This document shows positions 1 through 41,641 of a stretch of 48,151 nucleotides of DNA, piece after piece. The translations under genes and the position numbers were made by a program. The notes below the pieces were generated by a model. The model was not told the DNA's origin. It did not search any database and saw only the letters and a list, made by a program, of their open reading frames with translations. The first letter of the stretch is position 1. Each line of letters begins with the position of its first letter. The stretch is taken from NCBI GenBank assembly GCA_016200645.1, contig JACQEJ010000096.1, positions 1 to 48,151 of the forward strand, in the 5' to 3' direction. Origin of the DNA: Deltaproteobacteria bacterium. Its GTDB lineage: Bacteria > Desulfobacterota > GWC2-55-46 > UBA9637.

Positions 1-1852
1 GCCGCGCGGGATGTGGCTTGCAGAGAGGATATGGGAGCCTCAACTTCCTGTTTGTCTGAAAGAAGCAGGGATGGAATATGCTGTTGTGGATGACTATCAT
101 TTTGTGAAGGCCGGGCTGAGAAAAGAGCAGTTGGCAGGTTATTACATTACAGAGGATATGGGAAATGTTTTGAAGATTTTTCCCGGAAGTGAGCGGCTCA
201 GATATATTATCCCGTTTCAGACATCGGATAAGTTTATGGAAAATATCCGATGGGTTGAAACTCTCGGAACAAACCCGGTGGCAATATTTGCTGATGACGG
301 CGAGAAATTTGGCACATGGCCGGGCACGCACCAGTGGGTTTATAAAGAAGGATGGCTTGAAAAATTCCTTGAGACCATTGTGAAAAATCCGGAACTGATA
401 AAGCCGGTAACCTTTTCTGAATATATGGACAATAACGAACCTCTCGGCAGGGTATATCTGCCGACCACATCCTACATGGAGATGGGGGAGTGGACGTTGC
501 CTGCCGAGGCATCGGAGACATATACGAATCTTCTGAATGAGGTTAAGACATGGCCTGACGGAGAGCGGATACGGAGATTTTTGCAAGGCGGATTCTGGAG
601 GAATTTATTTGCCAAGTATCCTGAGGCGAATTGGATGCACAAGAGGATGCTGATGGTGAGCGAAACGATTGCGGAATGCGGAATGCGGAATGCGGAATTA
701 GAATCTAAACTCCCAACCCCCAACTCCCAACTCCGAACTTATTTATACATGGCCCAGTGCAACGATGCATATTGGCACGGCGTGTTCGGAGGACTTTATC
801 TGCCGCATATCAGAAGGGCGGTTTATGAGAATCTGATTAAGGCGGAGAATCTTTTAGAAGAAAGGCTTAAGGCTGAAGAAAAACAGGCTGAGGGCAAATC
901 TTCTTCCTCTAACCTCCAGCCTGATAAAGAGGTCTTACGACCAGCCTTCAGCCTGATTAGAGATTTTGATGCTGATACCTTCGATGAAATATTAGTCAGG
1001 ACACCGGAACTTAATCTCTTTTTGAGTCCTCATAACGGAGGCTCTATCATAGAACTGGATTACAGGCCAAAGGCTGTAAATCTTTCCAATACGCTTTCAC
1101 GGTGGAAGGAAGGCTATCATCACAGGGTAAAGGCTCAGGGAGAGGGTGGCCATGCCGGCGGCACAAAGAGCATCCATGATTTAACCATGTCCAAGGAAGA
1201 AGGGCTGGAGAAGTATCTCTTCTTTGATAAAGAACAGAGACTTTCGCTGCGCGATCATTTTTTGAAAAAGGAAGAGACGCTGGATGCCTTCAGAAAATCT
1301 GCGCATGAGGAAATGGGGGATTTTGCTTACAGACCGTATGAAAATAATAAGGGGCAAGTGGCAAGGGGCAAGGGGCAGGTTATTTTTAGCAGAGATGGAA
1401 AGGTAAATGGCCAAGCGGTTTTGGTGGAGAAAAAAATATCGGTTAAGGATAATGGAATAATAATAGACTATTGTGTGAAGAGAAACTCTCAACTCCCAAC
1501 TCCCAGCTCCCAACTCCCTCTACGGTTCGGCATTGAATTTAATCTTATTTTGCCGTGCTGCGACGGCATGGACGGATTCTATGATATTTCCATAGAAGAC
1601 AAAGGGCTTGGTGGTTCCGGAGAGATTGTCGGCATAAGGCAAATAGGTTTAGTGGACAAATGGACAAAGATGAGGGTGGATTTCGGTTTTGACAGGGATA
1701 CCTCTTTGTGGAGATTTCCTGTAGAAACCGTTTCCATATCCGAGGCCGGATTTGAGAGAAATTTTCAGGGCTCATGTATTTTGTTTTTCTGGGATATATC
1801 AATGGACAAGAGTTTTGAAGTAGGTTTTAAAGTTAAGGTGGAAGCAATTTAA
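1..1852 (+). CDS. Glycoside hydrolase family 57 protein (alpha-amylase/4-alpha-glucanotransferase-like), 5' end outside window
   Basis: Frame open from nt 2. WLAERIWEP, DDGEKFGTWPG and CNDAYWHGVFGGLYLPHIR motifs are typical of GH57. Stop at 1850-1852. Carries four low-complexity repeat insertions. Confidence 0.8.
   Translation, partial: PRGMWLAERIWEPQLPVCLKEAGMEYAVVDDYHFVKAGLRKEQLAGYYITEDMGNVLKIFPGSERLRYIIPFQTSDKFMENIRWVETLGTNPVAIFADDGEKFGTWPGTHQWVYKEGWLEKFLETIVKNPELIKPVTFSEYMDNNEPLGRVYLPTTSYMEMGEWTLPAEASETYTNLLNEVKTWPDGERIRRFLQGGFWRNLFAKYPEANWMHKRMLMVSETIAECGMRNAELESKLPTPNSQLRTYLYMAQCNDAYWHGVFGGLYLPHIRRAVYENLIKAENLLEERLKAEEKQAEGKSSSSNLQPDKEVLRPAFSLIRDFDADTFDEILVRTPELNLFLSPHNGGSIIELDYRPKAVNLSNTLSRWKEGYHHRVKAQGEGGHAGGTKSIHDLTMSKEEGLEKYLFFDKEQRLSLRDHFLKKEETLDAFRKSAHEEMGDFAYRPYENNKGQVARGKGQVIFSRDGKVNGQAVLVEKKISVKDNGIIIDYCVKRNSQLPTPSSQLPLRFGIEFNLILPCCDGMDGFYDISIEDKGLGGSGEIVGIRQIGLVDKWTKMRVDFGFDRDTSLWRFPVETVSISEAGFERNFQGSCILFFWDISMDKSFEVGFKVKVEAI
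671..739. repeat. In-frame tandem heptamers (GCGGAAT)x4 then (CTCCCAA)x4 inside the GH57 CDS
   Basis: Read directly: gcggaatgcggaatgcggaatgcggaat..ctcccaacccccaactcccaactccgaact. Encodes AECGMRNAELESKLPTPNSQLRT. Confidence 0.9.
864..956. repeat. In-frame mirrored repeat (GGCTGAAGG words and their complements) inside the GH57 CDS
   Basis: ggcttaaggctgaag..caggctgaggg on the left, cagccttcagcctga on the right. Same word family as intergenic hairpin 25914-25987. Confidence 0.75.
1349..1379. repeat. In-frame AAGGGGC heptamer tract inside the GH57 CDS
   Basis: aaggggcaagtggcaaggggcaaggggcagg. Encodes KGQVARGKGQV. Confidence 0.9.
1486..1520. repeat. In-frame CTCCCAA heptamer tract inside the GH57 CDS
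   Basis: ctctcaactcccaactcccagctcccaactccctc. Encodes SQLPTPSSQLPL. Same word as 710-739. Confidence 0.9.
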
Positions 1853-3434: not shown

Positions 3435-4949
3435 TTATTTGGCGAGCCTTTCCTTGACCAGCTTATTCAACACCTGCGGATTTGCCTGTCCCTTGGTCGC
3501 CTTCATGGTCTGACCGATAAAAAAGCTGAAGAGTTTTTCCTTTCCTCCCTTATATTCAGCGACCTCTTTGGGATTGGCGGCAATCACTTCGTCTATCGCC
3601 TTTATCAATGCGCCCTCGTTTGAAATCTGGACAAGCCCTTTCCCCTTTACTATCGCCTCCGGGTCCTTGCCTGTTTTATACACATCCTCAAACACTTCCT
3701 TTGCGGTTTTTAAATTGATACTCCCTGCATCAACCATCTTGAGAAGTTTTGCAAAGGCTGAAGGCTGAATGCTGAAAGTGGAAGGCTGTGTTATATCTTT
3801 GCCGTCCTCTTTGATCAGCCTCAACAACTCCCCCATGACCCAGTTGGACACATTTTTGCCAGCAGTTCCTTGCCCCTTGCCCCTTGCCCCTTGCCCCTCG
3901 TATTTTTGGACGCACTCTTCATAATAATTCGCCAATTCCTTGCTTGCGGTTAAAACACCTGCATCATAGGAAGGGATGCCATATTCTTTTATAAACCTTT
4001 GTCTCTTTTTTGCCGGAAGCTCCGGCAAGGTATTTTTTATCTCCTCTATCCATGCCTCATCAATATGCAAAGGAAGCAGATCGGGTTCAGGAAAATAGCG
4101 GTAATCGTGCGCCTCTTCCTTGCTCCGCATGGAAACGGTTATCCCTTTATCAGAATCAAAGAGCAGTGTTTCCTGAATAACCTTGCCGCCGTCCTCTATA
4201 ACCTCTATCTGTCGGTTTACCTCGTAATCAATTGCCTTTTGCACAAATCTGAATGAGTTCATATTTTTAAGCTCTGTCTTTGTGCCAAATTCTTTCCGGC
4301 CCACAGGCCTTATGGAGACATTTGCATCGCAGCGGAAACTCCCCTCTTCCATGTTGCCGTCGCAAATCTCAAGGTAAACCAGTATGTCCCGGAGCGCTTT
4401 GAGATATTCCACCGCCTCTTCTGAATTGCGAATATCCGGCTCGCTCACAATCTCAATCAGAGGAACGCCAGCCCTATTCAAATCAACAAAGCTAAAATCC
4501 GCATCCTCATAGCTCTCGCCGTGAAGGAGCTTTCCTGCGTCCTCTTCCATGTGTATCCTTGTTATGCCGATGCGCCTTTTTGCGCCGTTTACCCCCACAC
4601 CAAAATCTTTGGTGTGGGGGTTTACTTCAATATCAACATAACCCTTTTGTGTCAGGGGTTGGTCATACTGGGAAATCTGATACCCCTTTGGCAGGTCAGG
4701 ATAAAAATAGTTCTTCCGCGCAAAGATGCTTTTGTCGTTAACCTTGCAATGCGTTGCCAGAGCCATCTTTATGGCATATTCAACCGCTACCCTGTTTAAA
4801 ACAGGGAGCGTTCCGGGCATTCCAAGGCAGACCGGACAGACCTGCGTATTCGCCTCTGCGCCGAATTTTGTGGAACACCTGCAAAAGACCTTTGAGTTTG
4901 TCAAAAGCTGGGCGTGGACTTCAAGACCGATAACGGCTTCATATTGCAT
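3435..4949 (-). CDS. gatB: Asp-tRNA(Asn)/Glu-tRNA(Gln) amidotransferase subunit B
   Basis: [35 protein letters not shown] and a GatB/YqeY tail. 504 aa, longer than typical GatB because of two repeat insertions. Confidence 0.95.
3868..3898. repeat. In-frame AAGGGGC heptamer tract (coding strand) inside gatB
   Basis: Plus strand reads ccttgccccttgccccttgccccttgcccct. Encodes [12 protein letters not shown] in GatB. Confidence 0.9.
4592..4620. repeat. Palindromic element family P1 (CCCCCACACCAAA..TTTGGTGTGGGGG), in frame inside gatB
   Basis: cccccacaccaaaatctttggtgtggggg flanked by gtttac on both sides. Encodes [12 protein letters not shown] between IEV and [19 protein letters not shown]. Confidence 0.9.
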
Positions 4950-14211: not shown

Positions 14212-14291
14212 AAGGTAGATGGTAGAAAGAAAATCTTTTGTTTCTCCTGTCTACCTTCTACTACCTACTCTCTACTTCCTACTGCCTACTT
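14181..14291. repeat. Mirrored heptamer hairpin (GTAGAAG words), covers the fusion gene's 3' end and the spacer
   Basis: Left arm ggtagagggtagaaggtagatggtagaaag, right arm ctgtctaccttctactacctactctctacttcctactgcctac. Confidence 0.85.
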
Positions 14292-14309
14292 TCACTTAAG
14301 GGGGGGTTT

Positions 14310-15323
14310 ATGATTATCGTTTTAAGGCCGGATGCAACCAAGGAGCAGATTGACCATCTCATTGAAAAGATAAAAGACCTTGGCTTGTCAGTGCATATAT
14401 CAAAAGGAAAGGAAAGGACTATCATGGGCGTTATAGGCGATGAGTCGCTGTTGGAAGGCGCTCCGTTGGCAGTCTTGCCAGGCGTGGAAAATGTAATGCC
14501 CATATTAAAACCGTATAAGCTGGTCAGCAGAGAATTTCGAAAAGAGGATACTGTAATAGAAGTGGATGGAGTTAAGATTGGAGGGAAAGAGATCCAGGTA
14601 ATTGCAGGACCCTGCAGCATAGAAACGAGAGAACTTTTATTTGATGCTGCAAAAAAGGTAAAGAGGGCGGGGGCGAGGTTACTTCGGGGGGGCGCTTTTA
14701 AACCGAGGACATCTCCGTATGCATTTCAGGGGCTTGGGGAAGAGGGGTTGAAATACCTTGCAGAGGCAAGAAAAAAGACAGGAATGCCCGTTGTGACGGA
14801 ACTTATGGATCCGCGGGATATTGACATTATCTATGAGAATACCGACATAATTCAGATTGGCGCAAGAAATATGCAGAATTTCAGATTGCTGACAGAGGTG
14901 GGTAAATTGGATAAACCCGTGCTTCTAAAGAGGGGTTTGTCCGCAACAATAAAGGAGTTTTTGATGTCCGCAGAGTATATTGCGGCAGAGGGCAATCATA
15001 AAATAATACTTTGTGAAAGGGGCATAAGGACATTTGAAACAGCGGTTCGGAACACCCTTGATTTAAGCGCAGTGCCTGTGCTGAAAGAGGAAACACATCT
15101 TCCTGTTATTGTAGACCCGAGCCATGCTGTGGGAAGATGGGATCTTGTAGCTCCTCTGGCAAAGGCCGCAATAGCCGTGGGCGCGGACGGCCTCATGATA
15201 GAGGTTCATTCTGACCCTGAAAATGCCCTCTGCGACGGGGCGCAGTCTTTGAAGCCTGATAAATTCGCGAGCCTGATGAAAGAACTTAAAAAGGTGGCTG
15301 AGGCAATTGGAAGGACGATGTAG
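14310..15323 (+). CDS. aroF: 3-deoxy-7-phosphoheptulonate (DAHP) synthase, type I-beta with N-terminal ferredoxin-like regulatory domain
   Basis: [26 protein letters not shown]-domain, then [14 protein letters not shown] and DPSHA motifs. The ATG at 14310 is preferred because the longer ORF start (14238) lies inside the repeat hairpin. Confidence 0.85.
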
Positions 15324-16226
15324 ATGAAAGGGGCAAGGGGCAAGGGGCAAGGGGCAGGAGAAATACACTTTAATAAAGTTGCCATAATCGGCGTTGGTCT
15401 TATCGGCGGGTCCCTTGCGATTATTTTGAGAGAAAAGGGAATTGCAAAAAATATTGTCGGCATCGGCAGGGGGCTGAAAAATCTTGAGACTGCAAAAAAA
15501 CTCGGTGTTATTGATTCATACACGCAGGATGCAAGGGAGGGCGTCCGGGACGCAGACCTTGTTGTGGCTGCAATACCTGTTGCAGGTATTGCAAAGGTTA
15601 TAAAAGAAGCGCTGCCTTTGCTCAAGAAAGGCGCAATAGTCACAGATGTCGGGAGCGTCAAGAAAAACATTGTCGATGAAGTAGAAAAAATCCTTCCTGA
15701 TACAATTCATTTTGTCGGAGGCCATCCTATTGCGGGCACTGAGAATGCAGGCGTTGAGGCTGCATTTTCCACACTCTTCCAGAATAAGAGATGCATACTC
15801 ACACCTACCAAAAAAACGAATAAAGCCGCTTTGGGGAAGGTAAAAAAACTGTGGGAGATTGCAGGCTCTGAAGTAATCGTCATGGATGCGGAAAAGCACG
15901 ACAAAATCCTTGCCGCTGTAAGTCATCTGCCCCATGTTGTCGCCTATTCACTCGTGAACACCGTAAGCAACATAAATGATTTTAATGAAAGCATTATAAA
16001 ATATTCAGCAGGCGGTTTTAAGGATTTTACCCGCATTGCCTCAAGCCCGCCTGAGATGTGGCGGGACATCTGCCTTTTGAACAAAGACGCGATACTTGAT
16101 GTTGTCCTAAGATTTCAGAAGACGCTTAAAGGGCTGGAGGAGATGATAAAAGACAGCGATGGAGAGGGGCTTCAAAAGGAATTTGAAAAGGCAAAGGCAG
16201 TAAGGGATGGGTTGAAGAAGGGGTAG
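15324..16226 (+). CDS. tyrA: Prephenate dehydrogenase
   Basis: VAIIGVGLIGGS Rossmann motif and HPIAGTE motif. The N-terminal 11 codons are repeat-encoded. Confidence 0.85.
   Translation: MKGARGKGQGAGEIHFNKVAIIGVGLIGGSLAIILREKGIAKNIVGIGRGLKNLETAKKLGVIDSYTQDAREGVRDADLVVAAIPVAGIAKVIKEALPLLKKGAIVTDVGSVKKNIVDEVEKILPDTIHFVGGHPIAGTENAGVEAAFSTLFQNKRCILTPTKKTNKAALGKVKKLWEIAGSEVIVMDAEKHDKILAAVSHLPHVVAYSLVNTVSNINDFNESIIKYSAGGFKDFTRIASSPPEMWRDICLLNKDAILDVVLRFQKTLKGLEEMIKDSDGEGLQKEFEKAKAVRDGLKKG
15328..15358. repeat. In-frame AAGGGGC heptamer tract at the tyrA 5' end
   Basis: aaggggcaaggggcaaggggcaaggggcagg. Encodes [11 protein letters not shown] directly after the start codon. Confidence 0.9.
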
Positions 16227-17031: not shown

Positions 17032-17062
17032 ATAAACGGTCGCTGTCCCTATTTTCTCTCAG

Positions 17063-17179
17063 AGATTTCAGAACACGCTTAAAAGGCTGGAGGAGATGAT
17101 AAAAGACAGCGATGGAGAGGGGCTTCAAAAGGAATTTGAAAAGGCAAAAGGGGTAAGGGATGGGTTGAAGAAGGGGTAG
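17063..17179 (+). pseudogene. Orphan duplicate of the last ~38 codons of tyrA, including the stop
   Basis: Translates to RFQNTLKRLEEMIKDSDGEGLQKEFEKAKGVRDGLKKG*, which parallels the true TyrA C-terminus. No upstream body. Confidence 0.8.
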
Positions 17180-41525: not shown

Positions 41526-41641
41526 ACAGGCAAGGGGCGATAGGCAAAGAAATTCTAAATTCTAAACTCAAAATTTTAAATTTGAAATTTGTAATTTGGA
41601 TATTAGAATTGCTAATCCTATAGCCCATAGCCTATAGCCTA
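41526..41641. repeat. Two-tier mirrored element: outer GGCAA(G/T)(G/A)GG / CCTATAGCC words, inner AATTCTA-type heptamers
   Basis: acaggcaaggggcgataggcaa..aattctaaattctaaactcaaaattttaaatttgaaatttgtaatttgg..ttagaatt..cctatagcccatagcctatagcc. Confidence 0.85.

What the first reader, a model, noticed from the sequence alone, without database searches (positions are those of the whole stretch)
15328..15358. The same AAGGGGC heptamer tract is translated in three unrelated genes
The AAGGGGC x3-4 tract lies at the tyrA 5' end (15328-15358, [12 protein letters not shown]), inside gatB (3868-3898, [12 protein letters not shown]) and inside GH57 (1349-1379, KGQVARGKGQV). A degenerate copy starts the intergenic element at 41528. 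Identical nucleotide words in different genes and strands argue for spread by copying, not local slippage alone. In tyrA the tract sits between the start codon and the Rossmann motif, where length changes would alter or abolish translation.
Basis: seen in the sequence. Interest (0 to 1): 0.6.

Follow-up and report, generated by a model that had tools for sequence, protein, structure and literature searches.

The report
In-frame AAGGGGC heptamer repeat family
The AAGGGGC runs in tyrA, gatB and a glycosidase gene are three of about 24 copies of one family of short seven-base tandem repeats that litter this uncultured bacterium and its close relatives; this kind of repeat is already known, it is tolerated as floppy protein loops or tails, and copies in unrelated genes change together, so sequence passes between sites.

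Summary
(AAGGGGC)x4 lies at 15328-15356 (tyrA codons 2-11), 3868-3898 (gatB) and 1349-1377 (GH57). All three are read on the sense strand. The "degenerate copy" at 41528 is not a member.

These tracts are local examples of a genome-wide class. The genome has about 950 period-7 arrays against 36 in a shuffle, with a mode of four units plus 3 nt (31 nt). AAGGGGC has about 24 loci, and 21 of them lie in ORFs. This scan has reported the class before, in this genome and in several other phyla. The literature has it in Geobacter metallireducens, Xanthomonas, Nostoc and Beggiatoaceae.

Comparison with 12 related genomes shows the tracts are 27-33-nt in-frame insertions, present in some relatives and absent in others. 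Array sites persist while the unit is rewritten:
- Congener G002 has CAGGGGT at 6 of 8 sites where this genome has AAGGGGC, and its genome-wide counts are reversed (36 vs 1, against 5 vs 38 here).
- GH57 and trpE share an identical 32-nt tract that includes a private G>T change.

So "spread by copying" is supported. The most likely route is short-tract recombination between arrays. No reverse transcriptase was found in the array-rich genomes.

This is a new member of a known kind.

The parts
15328..15356 (+). (AAGGGGC)x4.1 array, tyrA codons 2-11. It is a net 27-nt (9-codon) insertion compared with relatives that lack it.
15324..16226 (+). tyrA (prephenate dehydrogenase, 300 aa). Its ATG directly follows the aroF stop codon.
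14238..15323 (+). DAHP synthase gene (aroF type). Its TAG stop at 15321-15323 closes the tyrA frame upstream of the ATG. Every relative in this order that was examined (7 genomes including this one) carries some small insert at or just after the aroF|tyrA junction.
3868..3898 (-). (AAGGGGC)x4.4 array on the gatB sense strand. It encodes an 11-residue insertion (about residues 353-363) at the boundary between the GatB_N and GatB_Yqey domains.
3435..4949 (-). gatB (504 aa)
1349..1377 (+). AAGGGGC AAGTGGC AAGGGGC AAGGGGC array in a GH57 loop. Together with 3 nt of left flank (1346-1377) it is identical over 32 nt to the array in trpE on contig C28.
2..1852 (+). GH57 alpha-amylase/4-alpha-glucanotransferase gene, cut at its 5' end by the contig end
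670..739 (+). Two adjacent arrays of other units (TGCGGAA x4, AACTCCC x4.6) in the same GH57 gene; same repeat class
1484..1518 (+). AACTCCC x5 array in GH57; same class, different family
3754..3788 (-). Degenerate AAGGCTG-type array in gatB, read on the sense strand as CAGCCTT; same class

Best explanation
The three tracts belong to one family (about 24 loci) of a lineage-wide class of short heptamer arrays, typically four units plus 3 nt (about 31 nt). These are selfish or neutral DNA-level repeats, not gene-specific devices. An array enters a gene as a block of about 27-33 nt, or overwrites an older array already there. It survives only if it keeps the reading frame, has no stop codon in any of the three phases it cycles through, and lies in a dispensable tail or loop. 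AAGGGGC on the sense strand reads as Gly/Lys/Gln/Ala/Arg. Arrays of the same or a similar unit at unlinked loci then exchange sequence. The most likely route is short-tract ectopic recombination or template switching between tracts of about 28-31 nt. As a result a family stays internally uniform and drifts as a whole, differently in each lineage. Shown: the insertions, the families, the persistence of sites with rewritten units, and the reversal of the dominant family in a congener. Inferred: the recombination or template-switch mechanism, and neutrality. In tyrA the tract is a 9-residue N-terminal tail ahead of strand beta-1 of the Rossmann fold. It is a frameshift liability, not a regulated switch.
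For: Class. There are 983 period-7 TRF arrays against 36 in a shuffled genome, and exact repeats of at least 3 units number 163 for period 7 against 0-29 for other periods. Array lengths follow 7k+3: intergenic 24:41, 31:50, 38:10; in ORFs 24:10, 31:47, 38:5. Four units is the mode both for units with a G3/C3 run (67 of 142) and for units without one (328 of 810).
Family. There are 24 AAGGGGC loci, 21 in ORFs, 18 of those sense. Among the 21 single-substitution neighbours only AAGGGTC (19) is common, and 13 have none.
Insertions. tyrA carries +27 nt compared with G004, G008, G010, G012 and all outgroups, and solved homologues align only from residue 15-18. gatB carries an 11-residue insertion compared with Aquifex GatB 3H0L and with G001, G002, G010 and G011. 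G011 C48 against G000 C171 shows +30 nt.
Sites persist while units change. Of 63 arrays from relatives with both flanks mapped, 48 have an array at the same site in G000, but only 7 have the same unit and 23 differ at 3 or more of 7 positions.
Concerted change across loci. Window counts for AAGGGGC/CAGGGGT are 38/5 in G000 and 1/36 in congener G002. At G000's AAGGGGC sites, G002 has CAGGGGT-type arrays at 6 of 8 and AAGGGGC at 0 of 8, G009 keeps AAGGGGC at 5 of 5, and G011 at 3 of 5. AGGGGCC intermediates occur.
Whole-array copying. GH57 and trpE share an identical 32 nt that includes a G>T in unit 2. The trpE site in relatives carries other units at the same overall length, which points to overwriting rather than insertion.
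No reverse transcriptase. RVT_1 was not found in G000, G002, G010 or G011.
Against: Ectopic recombination cannot by itself create an array at a site that had none (tyrA, gatB, G011 C48). It also does not easily explain replacement by unrelated units such as AAGGGGC versus AAGTCAA, where neither array nor flanks share homology. Tracts of 28-31 nt are at the lower limit for RecA-type exchange (my knowledge of E. coli minimal homology, not tested here). The shared private variant could be coincidence, at roughly 5-20% by my estimate. ORF calls were crude (longest ORFs), so the sense/antisense and position statistics are approximate. All genomes are metagenome-assembled genomes. Gains and losses at a site cannot be polarised with certainty.
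Confidence: 0.55

Rival explanations
1. The tyrA tract is a phase-variation (contingency) switch. Slippage by one unit turns tyrosine biosynthesis off and on, as heptanucleotide or tetranucleotide repeats do in the 5' coding regions of surface genes.
For: The unit length is not a multiple of 3. The perfect array sits directly after the only usable start codon. A 94%-identical pair of sequences elsewhere in the assembly differs by one unit (4 vs 5) in a non-coding array.
Against: The array has only four units. tyrA is a single-copy housekeeping gene; the only other match is a 39-aa fragment. G000, G011 and G002 all carry in-frame arrays of the same length at this site. The same family sits in gatB, trpE, GH57 and about 17 other ORFs with no common theme. 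Only 1 of 402 contig ends falls in an array.
Confidence: 0.06
2. Purely local origin. Each array arose by slippage of a local seed and is homogenised only within itself. The shared unit reflects selection for benign peptides or G-rich sequence, with no transfer between loci.
For: Lengths of 7k+3 are what slippage between two 3-nt microhomologies 7 nt apart would give. In ORFs the 4-unit class (net +21 nt, in frame) is favoured over the 3-unit and 5-unit classes compared with intergenic DNA. Partly converted arrays such as AAGGGGC AAGGTGC AAGGTGC AAGGGGC in G005 gatB show spread within an array. Several filled-versus-empty differences are about 20-21 nt.
Against: Measured net inserts are 27, 30 and 33 nt with no seed unit in the empty alleles. 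The unit spectrum is sharply peaked. The reversal of dominant family between congeners, followed by 6 of 8 orthologous loci, cannot arise locus by locus. Peptide selection would favour the same units in both congeners.
Confidence: 0.1
3. The arrays are tiny non-autonomous mobile elements, or products of a dedicated trans-acting enzyme (transposase, integrase, or a polymerase that writes repeats from a template). This enzyme inserts ready-made cassettes of about 31 nt, preferably at or next to existing arrays.
For: Arrays are present in some relatives and absent in others at exactly the same positions, and this does not follow the gene trees. Perfect arrays show a discrete length mode at 29-33 nt. 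Arrays cluster: 220 neighbour gaps of 20 nt or less against 27 expected, and 112 of those pairs have unrelated units. Immediate flanks are A/T-rich. The class is patchy within the phylum: (AAGGGGC)x3 matched in 9 of 401 genomes. Inserts are not multiples of 7.
Against: Solitary arrays have no terminal inverted repeats, no hairpin and no clear target-site duplication. RVT_1 was not found in the most array-rich complete genomes. Y1 transposases occur in 12 of 13 genomes of the order but also in 20 of 28 outside it. No candidate gene was identified.
Confidence: 0.2
4. The tract is a selected functional element: an RNA or DNA G-quadruplex that tunes translation or transcription (four G4 runs directly after the tyrA start codon), or a functional Gly-rich peptide.
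For: (GGGGCAA)x4 is a canonical G-quadruplex motif. With ViennaRNA's quadruplex model the tyrA 5' tract folds at -32.8 kcal/mol, against -3.0 without that model. G-runs are kept while the linker changes (AAGGGGC, CAGGGGT, AAGGGTC). Rehm et al. 2015 showed quadruplex formation and a four-unit preference for GGGAATC repeats (PMC4692102).
Against: The four-unit mode is the same for units without G-runs. The same sites carry non-G units in relatives, such as AAGTCAA and AGTTCAA. Close relatives lack the tract entirely (G004 tyrA, 93% identical). The tract has no consistent position relative to start codons across the family.
Confidence: 0.07

Closest known systems
Geobacter metallireducens multicopy 'four tandem heptanucleotide' elements (consensus GGACCGG; Gmet_H4##), Aklujkar et al. 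2009, PMC2700814
   Same: [quoted passage not shown] The host is a Geobacter, which I place in the same broad phylum (my taxonomy knowledge, not checked here). This matches the AAGGGGC family here in unit number, dispersal and location inside genes.
   Different: The unit differs. That paper proposed a regulatory RNA role and made no comparison of orthologous sites. Here there are about 219 distinct units and several co-existing families, and the comparison with relatives shows rewriting and reversal of the dominant family.
G-quadruplex-forming GGGAATC / GGGGA(C/T)T heptamer repeats of Xanthomonas and Nostoc (Rehm et al. 2015, PMC4692102)
   Same: [quoted passage not shown] 83% are conserved in position between two species, with 'extensive length and sequence variation'. 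Inverted pairs also occur.
   Different: [quoted passage not shown] Here AAGGGGC is 21 of 24 in ORFs and mostly sense. Here the four-unit preference also holds for units without G-runs, so the quadruplex explanation does not generalise.
Cyanobacterial STRR heptamers (Mazel et al. 1990), with small dispersed repeats nested in them (Elhai et al. 2008); cited from my own knowledge, papers not held
   Same: Many families of tandem heptamers dispersed through a genome. Small palindromic elements nested inside arrays are also seen here: G004 gatB, and G000 contigs C130 and C201.
   Different: STRRs are described as mainly intergenic. The lineage here is an uncultured groundwater member of the Thermodesulfobacteriota/'Nitrospirae'-labelled group, judging from the titles of the closest records.
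TAACTGA direct repeats of marine Beggiatoaceae, cyanobacteria and Bacteroidetes (MacGregor 2015, PMC4679880)
   Same: One heptamer as direct repeats of 2-6 copies at 169 sites. The few copies inside ORFs lie at protein termini or outside domains, and mobility was suspected with 'no mechanism evident'.
   Different: Those repeats are mostly upstream of start codons and carry stop codons in all frames in one orientation. AAGGGGC is open in all six frames and mostly inside genes.
Heptanucleotide phase-variable genes such as E. coli K1 neuO (AAGACTC)n; from my own knowledge and earlier scan notes
   Same: A 7-nt repeat in the 5' coding region, whose copy number sets the reading frame.
   Different: neuO has long, polymorphic arrays in a surface-modification gene. 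Here there is a four-unit array of constant length in a housekeeping gene, and no polymorphism data.

Membership tests
Heptameric long simple-sequence repeats / STRR-like class | Tandem direct repeats with a 7-nt unit, over-represented genome-wide compared with other periods and with shuffled sequence | tested here: met
   983 period-7 arrays against 36 in a shuffle; exact repeats of 3 or more units number 163 for period 7 against 0-29 for periods 4-12
Heptameric long simple-sequence repeats / STRR-like class | The same unit recurs at many dispersed loci (families) | tested here: met
   24-25 AAGGGGC loci, 19 AAGGGTC loci, and 219 distinct units in all
Heptameric long simple-sequence repeats / STRR-like class | Predominantly intergenic location | tested here: inconclusive
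   The class as a whole is enriched about 5-8 fold in intergenic DNA: 419 of 952 arrays lie in about 9.5% of the genome. But 383 lie fully inside ORFs, and the AAGGGGC family is 21 of 24 in ORFs. ORF calls were crude.
Four-unit heptamer elements (G. metallireducens Gmet_H4; Rehm et al. four-unit preference) | Modal copy number of four | tested here: met
   The length mode is 31 nt both in ORFs and between genes, and perfect arrays peak at 29-33 nt
Four-unit heptamer elements (G. metallireducens Gmet_H4) | Copies both inside genes and between genes, sometimes several per gene | tested here: met
   GH57 carries 4 arrays and gatB 2; the ORF on contig C75 carries 2 AAGGGGC arrays
G-quadruplex-forming repeats (Rehm et al. 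2015) | Four G-tracts able to fold into a quadruplex, shown biophysically | not testable with these tools
   Prediction only: -32.8 kcal/mol with ViennaRNA's quadruplex model. CD spectroscopy or K+ dependence would be needed.
Phase-variable contingency locus | Repeat inside the reading frame whose unit is not a multiple of 3, near the 5' end | tested here: met
   tyrA codons 2-11
Phase-variable contingency locus | Copy-number polymorphism among cells or strains that gives on and off alleles | not testable with these tools
TyrA and GatB are the only members of their 90%-identity clusters. The metagenome scan for the junction gave 0 hits. Orthologues that have an array are all in frame and of equal length.
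Phase-variable contingency locus | Gene class for which switching is useful (surface, restriction-modification, host interaction) | tested here: not met
   Prephenate dehydrogenase, GatB, TrpE and GH57 are housekeeping or metabolic genes
Miniature mobile elements (MITE, Rickettsia palindromic element or small-dispersed-repeat type) | Terminal inverted repeats or palindromic structure, and a target-site duplication | tested here: not met
   Solitary arrays are direct repeats only. Flanks are A/T-rich with no conserved motif or clear duplication.
Miniature mobile elements (MITE, Rickettsia palindromic element or small-dispersed-repeat type) | Presence/absence differences at orthologous sites, and identical copies at unrelated loci | tested here: met
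   tyrA and gatB are filled in some relatives and empty in others, against the gene phylogeny. GH57 and trpE share an identical 32 nt.

The most novel reading that the evidence does not exclude
Dispersed 31-nt heptamer arrays inside unlinked, essential genes are actively rewritten from a genome-wide pool of units. This would be concerted evolution across loci, with whole families replaced in one lineage (AAGGGGC to CAGGGGT at 6 of 8 orthologous sites). It would imply an undescribed short-tract copying process that targets existing array sites and sets a four-unit length regardless of sequence.
Probability: 0.3. Interest if true: 0.65.

Novelty: new member of a known kind. Interest (0 to 1): 0.4.

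Why it matters
Heptamer arrays have been an unexplained feature of some bacterial genomes since 1990. This lineage offers a useful comparative set: 13 related genomes in which the same sites carry different units. That set shows that the arrays are not independent microsatellites. They form families that exchange sequence between unlinked genes, including essential ones, which constrains any model of their origin. For annotation, such tracts should be read as in-frame loop or tail insertions, not as frameshifts, phase switches or assembly errors. If the rewriting process proves to be a distinct mechanism, it would be a new source of rapid peptide-loop variation in otherwise conserved enzymes.

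Tried and rejected
2. Near-identical strains: TyrA and GatB are the only members of their 90%-identity clusters among 15 billion proteins. A metagenome scan for the aroF|tyrA junction with a variable gap found nothing.
3. Model of a reverse transcriptase or telomerase-like enzyme that writes repeats: RVT_1 was not found in G000, G002, G010 or G011, three of which are listed as 100% complete. Rejected, with the caveat that very divergent enzymes could be missed.
4. IS200/RAYT-type Y1 transposase as mobiliser: present in 12 of 13 genomes of the order but also in 20 of 28 genomes outside it. Uninformative.
5. Four units explained by the need for four G-tracts in a quadruplex: rejected as a general cause, because units without G-runs have the same mode.
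6. Conserved insertion target motif: only A/T-richness of about 8 nt on the left and 4 nt on the right.
7. Arrays as a cause of assembly breaks: only 1 of 402 contig ends is an array.
8. Position relative to start codons: 27% of in-ORF arrays fall in the first tenth of the longest ORF. Stop-free arrays can extend an ORF upstream of the true start, so this cannot be interpreted without proper start-codon calls.
9. Elhai et al. 2008 could not be read because it is not held.

Full report
OBSERVATION. TRF finds (AAGGGGC)n at 15328-15356, at 3868-3898 (minus strand) and at 1349-1377, the last with one G>T in unit 2. A double-unit search gives 10 hits in the window against 0.66 expected, and no shuffle out of 100 reaches 10. 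The ORFs are prephenate dehydrogenase (tyrA), GatB and a 5'-truncated GH57 enzyme. In all three genes AAGGGGC is on the sense strand. tyrA has to start at ATG 15324: the aroF stop TAG (15321-15323) is in frame just upstream, and the next in-frame canonical start is codon 35, past the GxGxxG motif. The element at 41528 holds a single AAGGGGC unit inside an ATAGGC-type hairpin arm and is not a family member.

GENOME CONTEXT. The window is contig C113 of a 1.98-Mb genome in 201 contigs, 45.6% G+C. The closest named records are groundwater and sediment metagenome-assembled genomes labelled Thermodesulfobacteriota, Proteobacteria or Nitrospirae. Period 7 dominates:
- 163 exact arrays of at least 3 units, against 0-29 for periods 4-12.
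- 983 TRF arrays, against 36 in a shuffled genome, with 219 distinct units.
- Of 952 non-redundant arrays, 383 lie inside ORFs, 150 straddle an ORF end and 419 are intergenic. The ORF calls are crude longest-ORF calls.
- Arrays cluster: 220 neighbour gaps of 20 nt or less against 27 expected. Of these pairs, 99 are inverted (hairpins) and 112 have unrelated units.
- Lengths follow 7k+3 with the mode at 31 nt, both in ORFs and between genes. The 24-nt class is depleted in ORFs (10 against 41).
- Perfect arrays have a separate mode at 29-33 nt.
- Four units is the mode whether or not the unit contains a G3/C3 run.

THE AAGGGGC FAMILY. There are 24 loci: 21 in ORFs (18 sense) and 3 intergenic. 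The intergenic copies, and the two copies on contig C61, are paired with GACCCTT-type arms. Of the 21 single-substitution neighbours of the unit, only AAGGGTC is common (19 arrays), and 13 have none. The family occurs in the 13 genomes of this order that were sampled (families f1 and f2). It occurs in 1 of 28 other genomes of the class and in 9 of 401 genomes of the phylum, four of those nine belonging to this order. Regions sampled from two of the outlying genomes (G359, G095) also hold many heptamer arrays.

THE THREE SITES IN RELATIVES.
- tyrA. G000 and G011 (a different family, 76% amino-acid identity) both have an AAGGGGC array between ATG AAA and GAA ATA. Congener G002 has an array of the same length made of CAGGGGT/CAGGGGC units. 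G004 (93% identical), G008, G010, G012 and all outgroups have none and are 9 codons shorter. Solved prephenate dehydrogenases align only from residue 15-18. In G004, G010 and G012 the aroF|tyrA junction instead holds an element of about 140 nt; in G010 and G012 it is bounded by inverted ends. In G008 the junction holds a palindromic insert of about 70 nt.
- gatB. The tract is an 11-residue insertion compared with Aquifex GatB (3H0L). It is absent in G001, G002, G010, G011 and the outgroups. G009 has the same array. G005 has it half converted (AAGGTGC in two units). In G004 it is split by a 27-nt palindrome. In G008 it is replaced by CAGGGGT/CGGGGAT units, and in G012 by an 8-mer plus a palindrome.
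- GH57. With identical flanks, G003 has (AAGGGTC)x4, G002 has (CAGGGGT)x4 and G007 has a CAGGGGT/CAGGGGC mixture. Other relatives have AAGTCAG-type arrays and nested palindromes.
Presence and absence at these sites do not follow the ranking of gene identities.

SITES PERSIST AND UNITS ARE REWRITTEN. I fetched the flanks of G-rich arrays from G002, G011, G009 and G004 and mapped them onto G000. Of 63 arrays with both flanks placed, 48 have an array at the same spot in G000. Only 7 of those have the same unit. 5 differ at 1 position, 13 at 2, and 23 at 3 or more, which is about what random heptamers would give. 15 sites have no array in G000. For example, G011 has GATAAT-(AAGGGGC)x4-TTTAAAG where G000 has GATAAT-(AAGTCAA)x4-TTTAAAG.

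A FAMILY REPLACED ACROSS LOCI. Counts of 21-mer windows with at most 1 mismatch:
- AAGGGGC: G000 38, G011 29, G009 23, G002 1.
- CAGGGGT: G002 36, G000 5.
At the sites that are AAGGGGC in G000:
- G002 has CAGGGGT-type arrays at 6 of 8 (tyrA, GH57, C201:5848, C28:1220, C75:8680, C130) and AAGGGGC at none.
- G009 keeps AAGGGGC at 5 of 5.
- G011 keeps it at 3 of 5.
AGGGGCC units, intermediate between the two, occur in the G002 tyrA array and the G007 GH57 array. Evolution locus by locus cannot produce this pattern.

DIRECT SIGN OF COPYING. The GH57 array and an array in trpE (contig C28) are identical over 32 nt (ATAAGGGGCAAGTGGCAAGGGGCAAGGGGCA). The identity includes the G>T in unit 2 and the reading phase, and the two proteins are otherwise unrelated. 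In relatives the trpE linker has the same overall length but carries other units (AGGAGTC, AAGGGTC, AAGTCAA, an 8-mer) or no visible repeat. The G000 array therefore overwrote earlier sequence rather than adding length. I put the chance of a coincidental shared variant at roughly 5-20%.

MECHANISM. Net inserts of 27, 30 and 33 nt with no seed unit in the empty alleles argue against simple expansion of a local seed, which would add multiples of 7. The 7k+3 lengths and the depletion of 3-unit arrays in ORFs show that slippage-type processes and selection on reading frame also shape the arrays. Reverse transcriptase was not found in G000, G002, G010 or G011. Y1 transposases are not specific to the order. 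My best reading is that arrays originate rarely, as blocks of about 30 nt. After that, arrays of similar unit exchange sequence by short-tract ectopic recombination or template switching, while selection only filters for frame, absence of stops and tolerant loops. This is an inference. It does not explain replacement by unrelated units, nor why the length is four units.

tyrA SPECIFICALLY. The tract adds a 9-residue tail ahead of strand beta-1. On the mRNA it is a canonical four-tract G-quadruplex motif, predicted at -32.8 kcal/mol against -3.0 without the quadruplex model, but a close relative does without it. Nothing indicates switching. A 94%-identical pair of sequences elsewhere in the assembly (the end of C108 and the start of C31) differs by one unit in a non-coding array, so slippage does happen. 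Variation at the level of reads or strains could not be tested.

COMPARISON WITH WHAT IS KNOWN. The closest description is the G. metallireducens element of four GGACCGG units at 49 sites between and inside genes. Xanthomonas and Nostoc GGGNATC repeats share the four-unit preference and conservation of position with sequence variation, but they avoid coding strands. Beggiatoaceae TAACTGA repeats inside ORFs also sit at protein termini or outside domains. Earlier agents of this scan described the same class in this genome and in Gottesmanbacteria, Paceibacteria, Omnitrophota, Acidobacteriota, a betaproteobacterium and Selenomonadaceae, including 'same site, different unit'. What this report adds is the quantified reversal of the dominant family between congeners, followed by orthologous sites, and the 32-nt identity between GH57 and trpE.

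Noticed in passing
window 17060-17176 (+): A 39-aa stretch 90% identical to the C-terminus of TyrA (residues 262-300) lies about 830 nt downstream of tyrA. It is a partial duplicate of the gene's 3' end.
   Followed up: no
L086 (G012), L087 (G010) and L082 (G004), just upstream of tyrA: Between the aroF stop and tyrA, G010 and G012 carry an element of about 140 nt with terminal inverted repeats (AGTTCACGCTGAAAAAT ... ATTTTTGAGCGTGAACT), which looks like a MITE. G004 shows the matching right-hand part upstream of its tyrA. G008 has a palindromic insert of about 70 nt at the same junction. Every genome of the order that was examined has some small insert at or just after this junction.
   Followed up: partly
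L103 (G004 gatB); G000 contigs C130:3568-3650 and C201:5258-5356: Small palindromic elements are nested inside heptamer arrays, for example CCTGCCCCTGCAGGCTTTAAGCAGGGG in G004 and GCCTGCCTGTGCGTGGCCGCACGCAGACAGG in G000. This recalls the small dispersed repeats inside cyanobacterial heptamer repeats, and probably the palindrome family reported earlier in this genome.
   Followed up: partly
G000 C108:4713-5212 and C31:3-500: Two contigs are 94% identical over 498 nt and differ by one unit (4 vs 5 GCCCCTT) in a hairpin-type array. They are either paralogues or co-assembled strains. C108 ends exactly in the array.
   Followed up: partly
G000 contig C150:38-901: A second copy of the GH57 N-terminal part, 82% identical to residues 1-283 of the window's GH57. 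It is either a paralogue or a strain-variant contig.
   Followed up: no
whole genome: Seven arrays have the unit ACTGGGG, the reverse complement of CCCCAGT. From memory that is the cyanobacterial STRR1 unit; probably a coincidence.
   Followed up: no
L108 (G012 gatB) and L206 (G012 trpE): G012 uses 8-nt units (AAGGGGTC, AAGGGTTC) at sites where its relatives have 7-nt units, so the period itself can change at a fixed site.
   Followed up: no
L189 (G359:C3:78500-86500): A genome from a different family of the same phylum has eight heptamer arrays within 8 kb. They include AAGGGGC-type arrays of 4-7 units and a 19-unit CCTTGCA array.
   Followed up: partly
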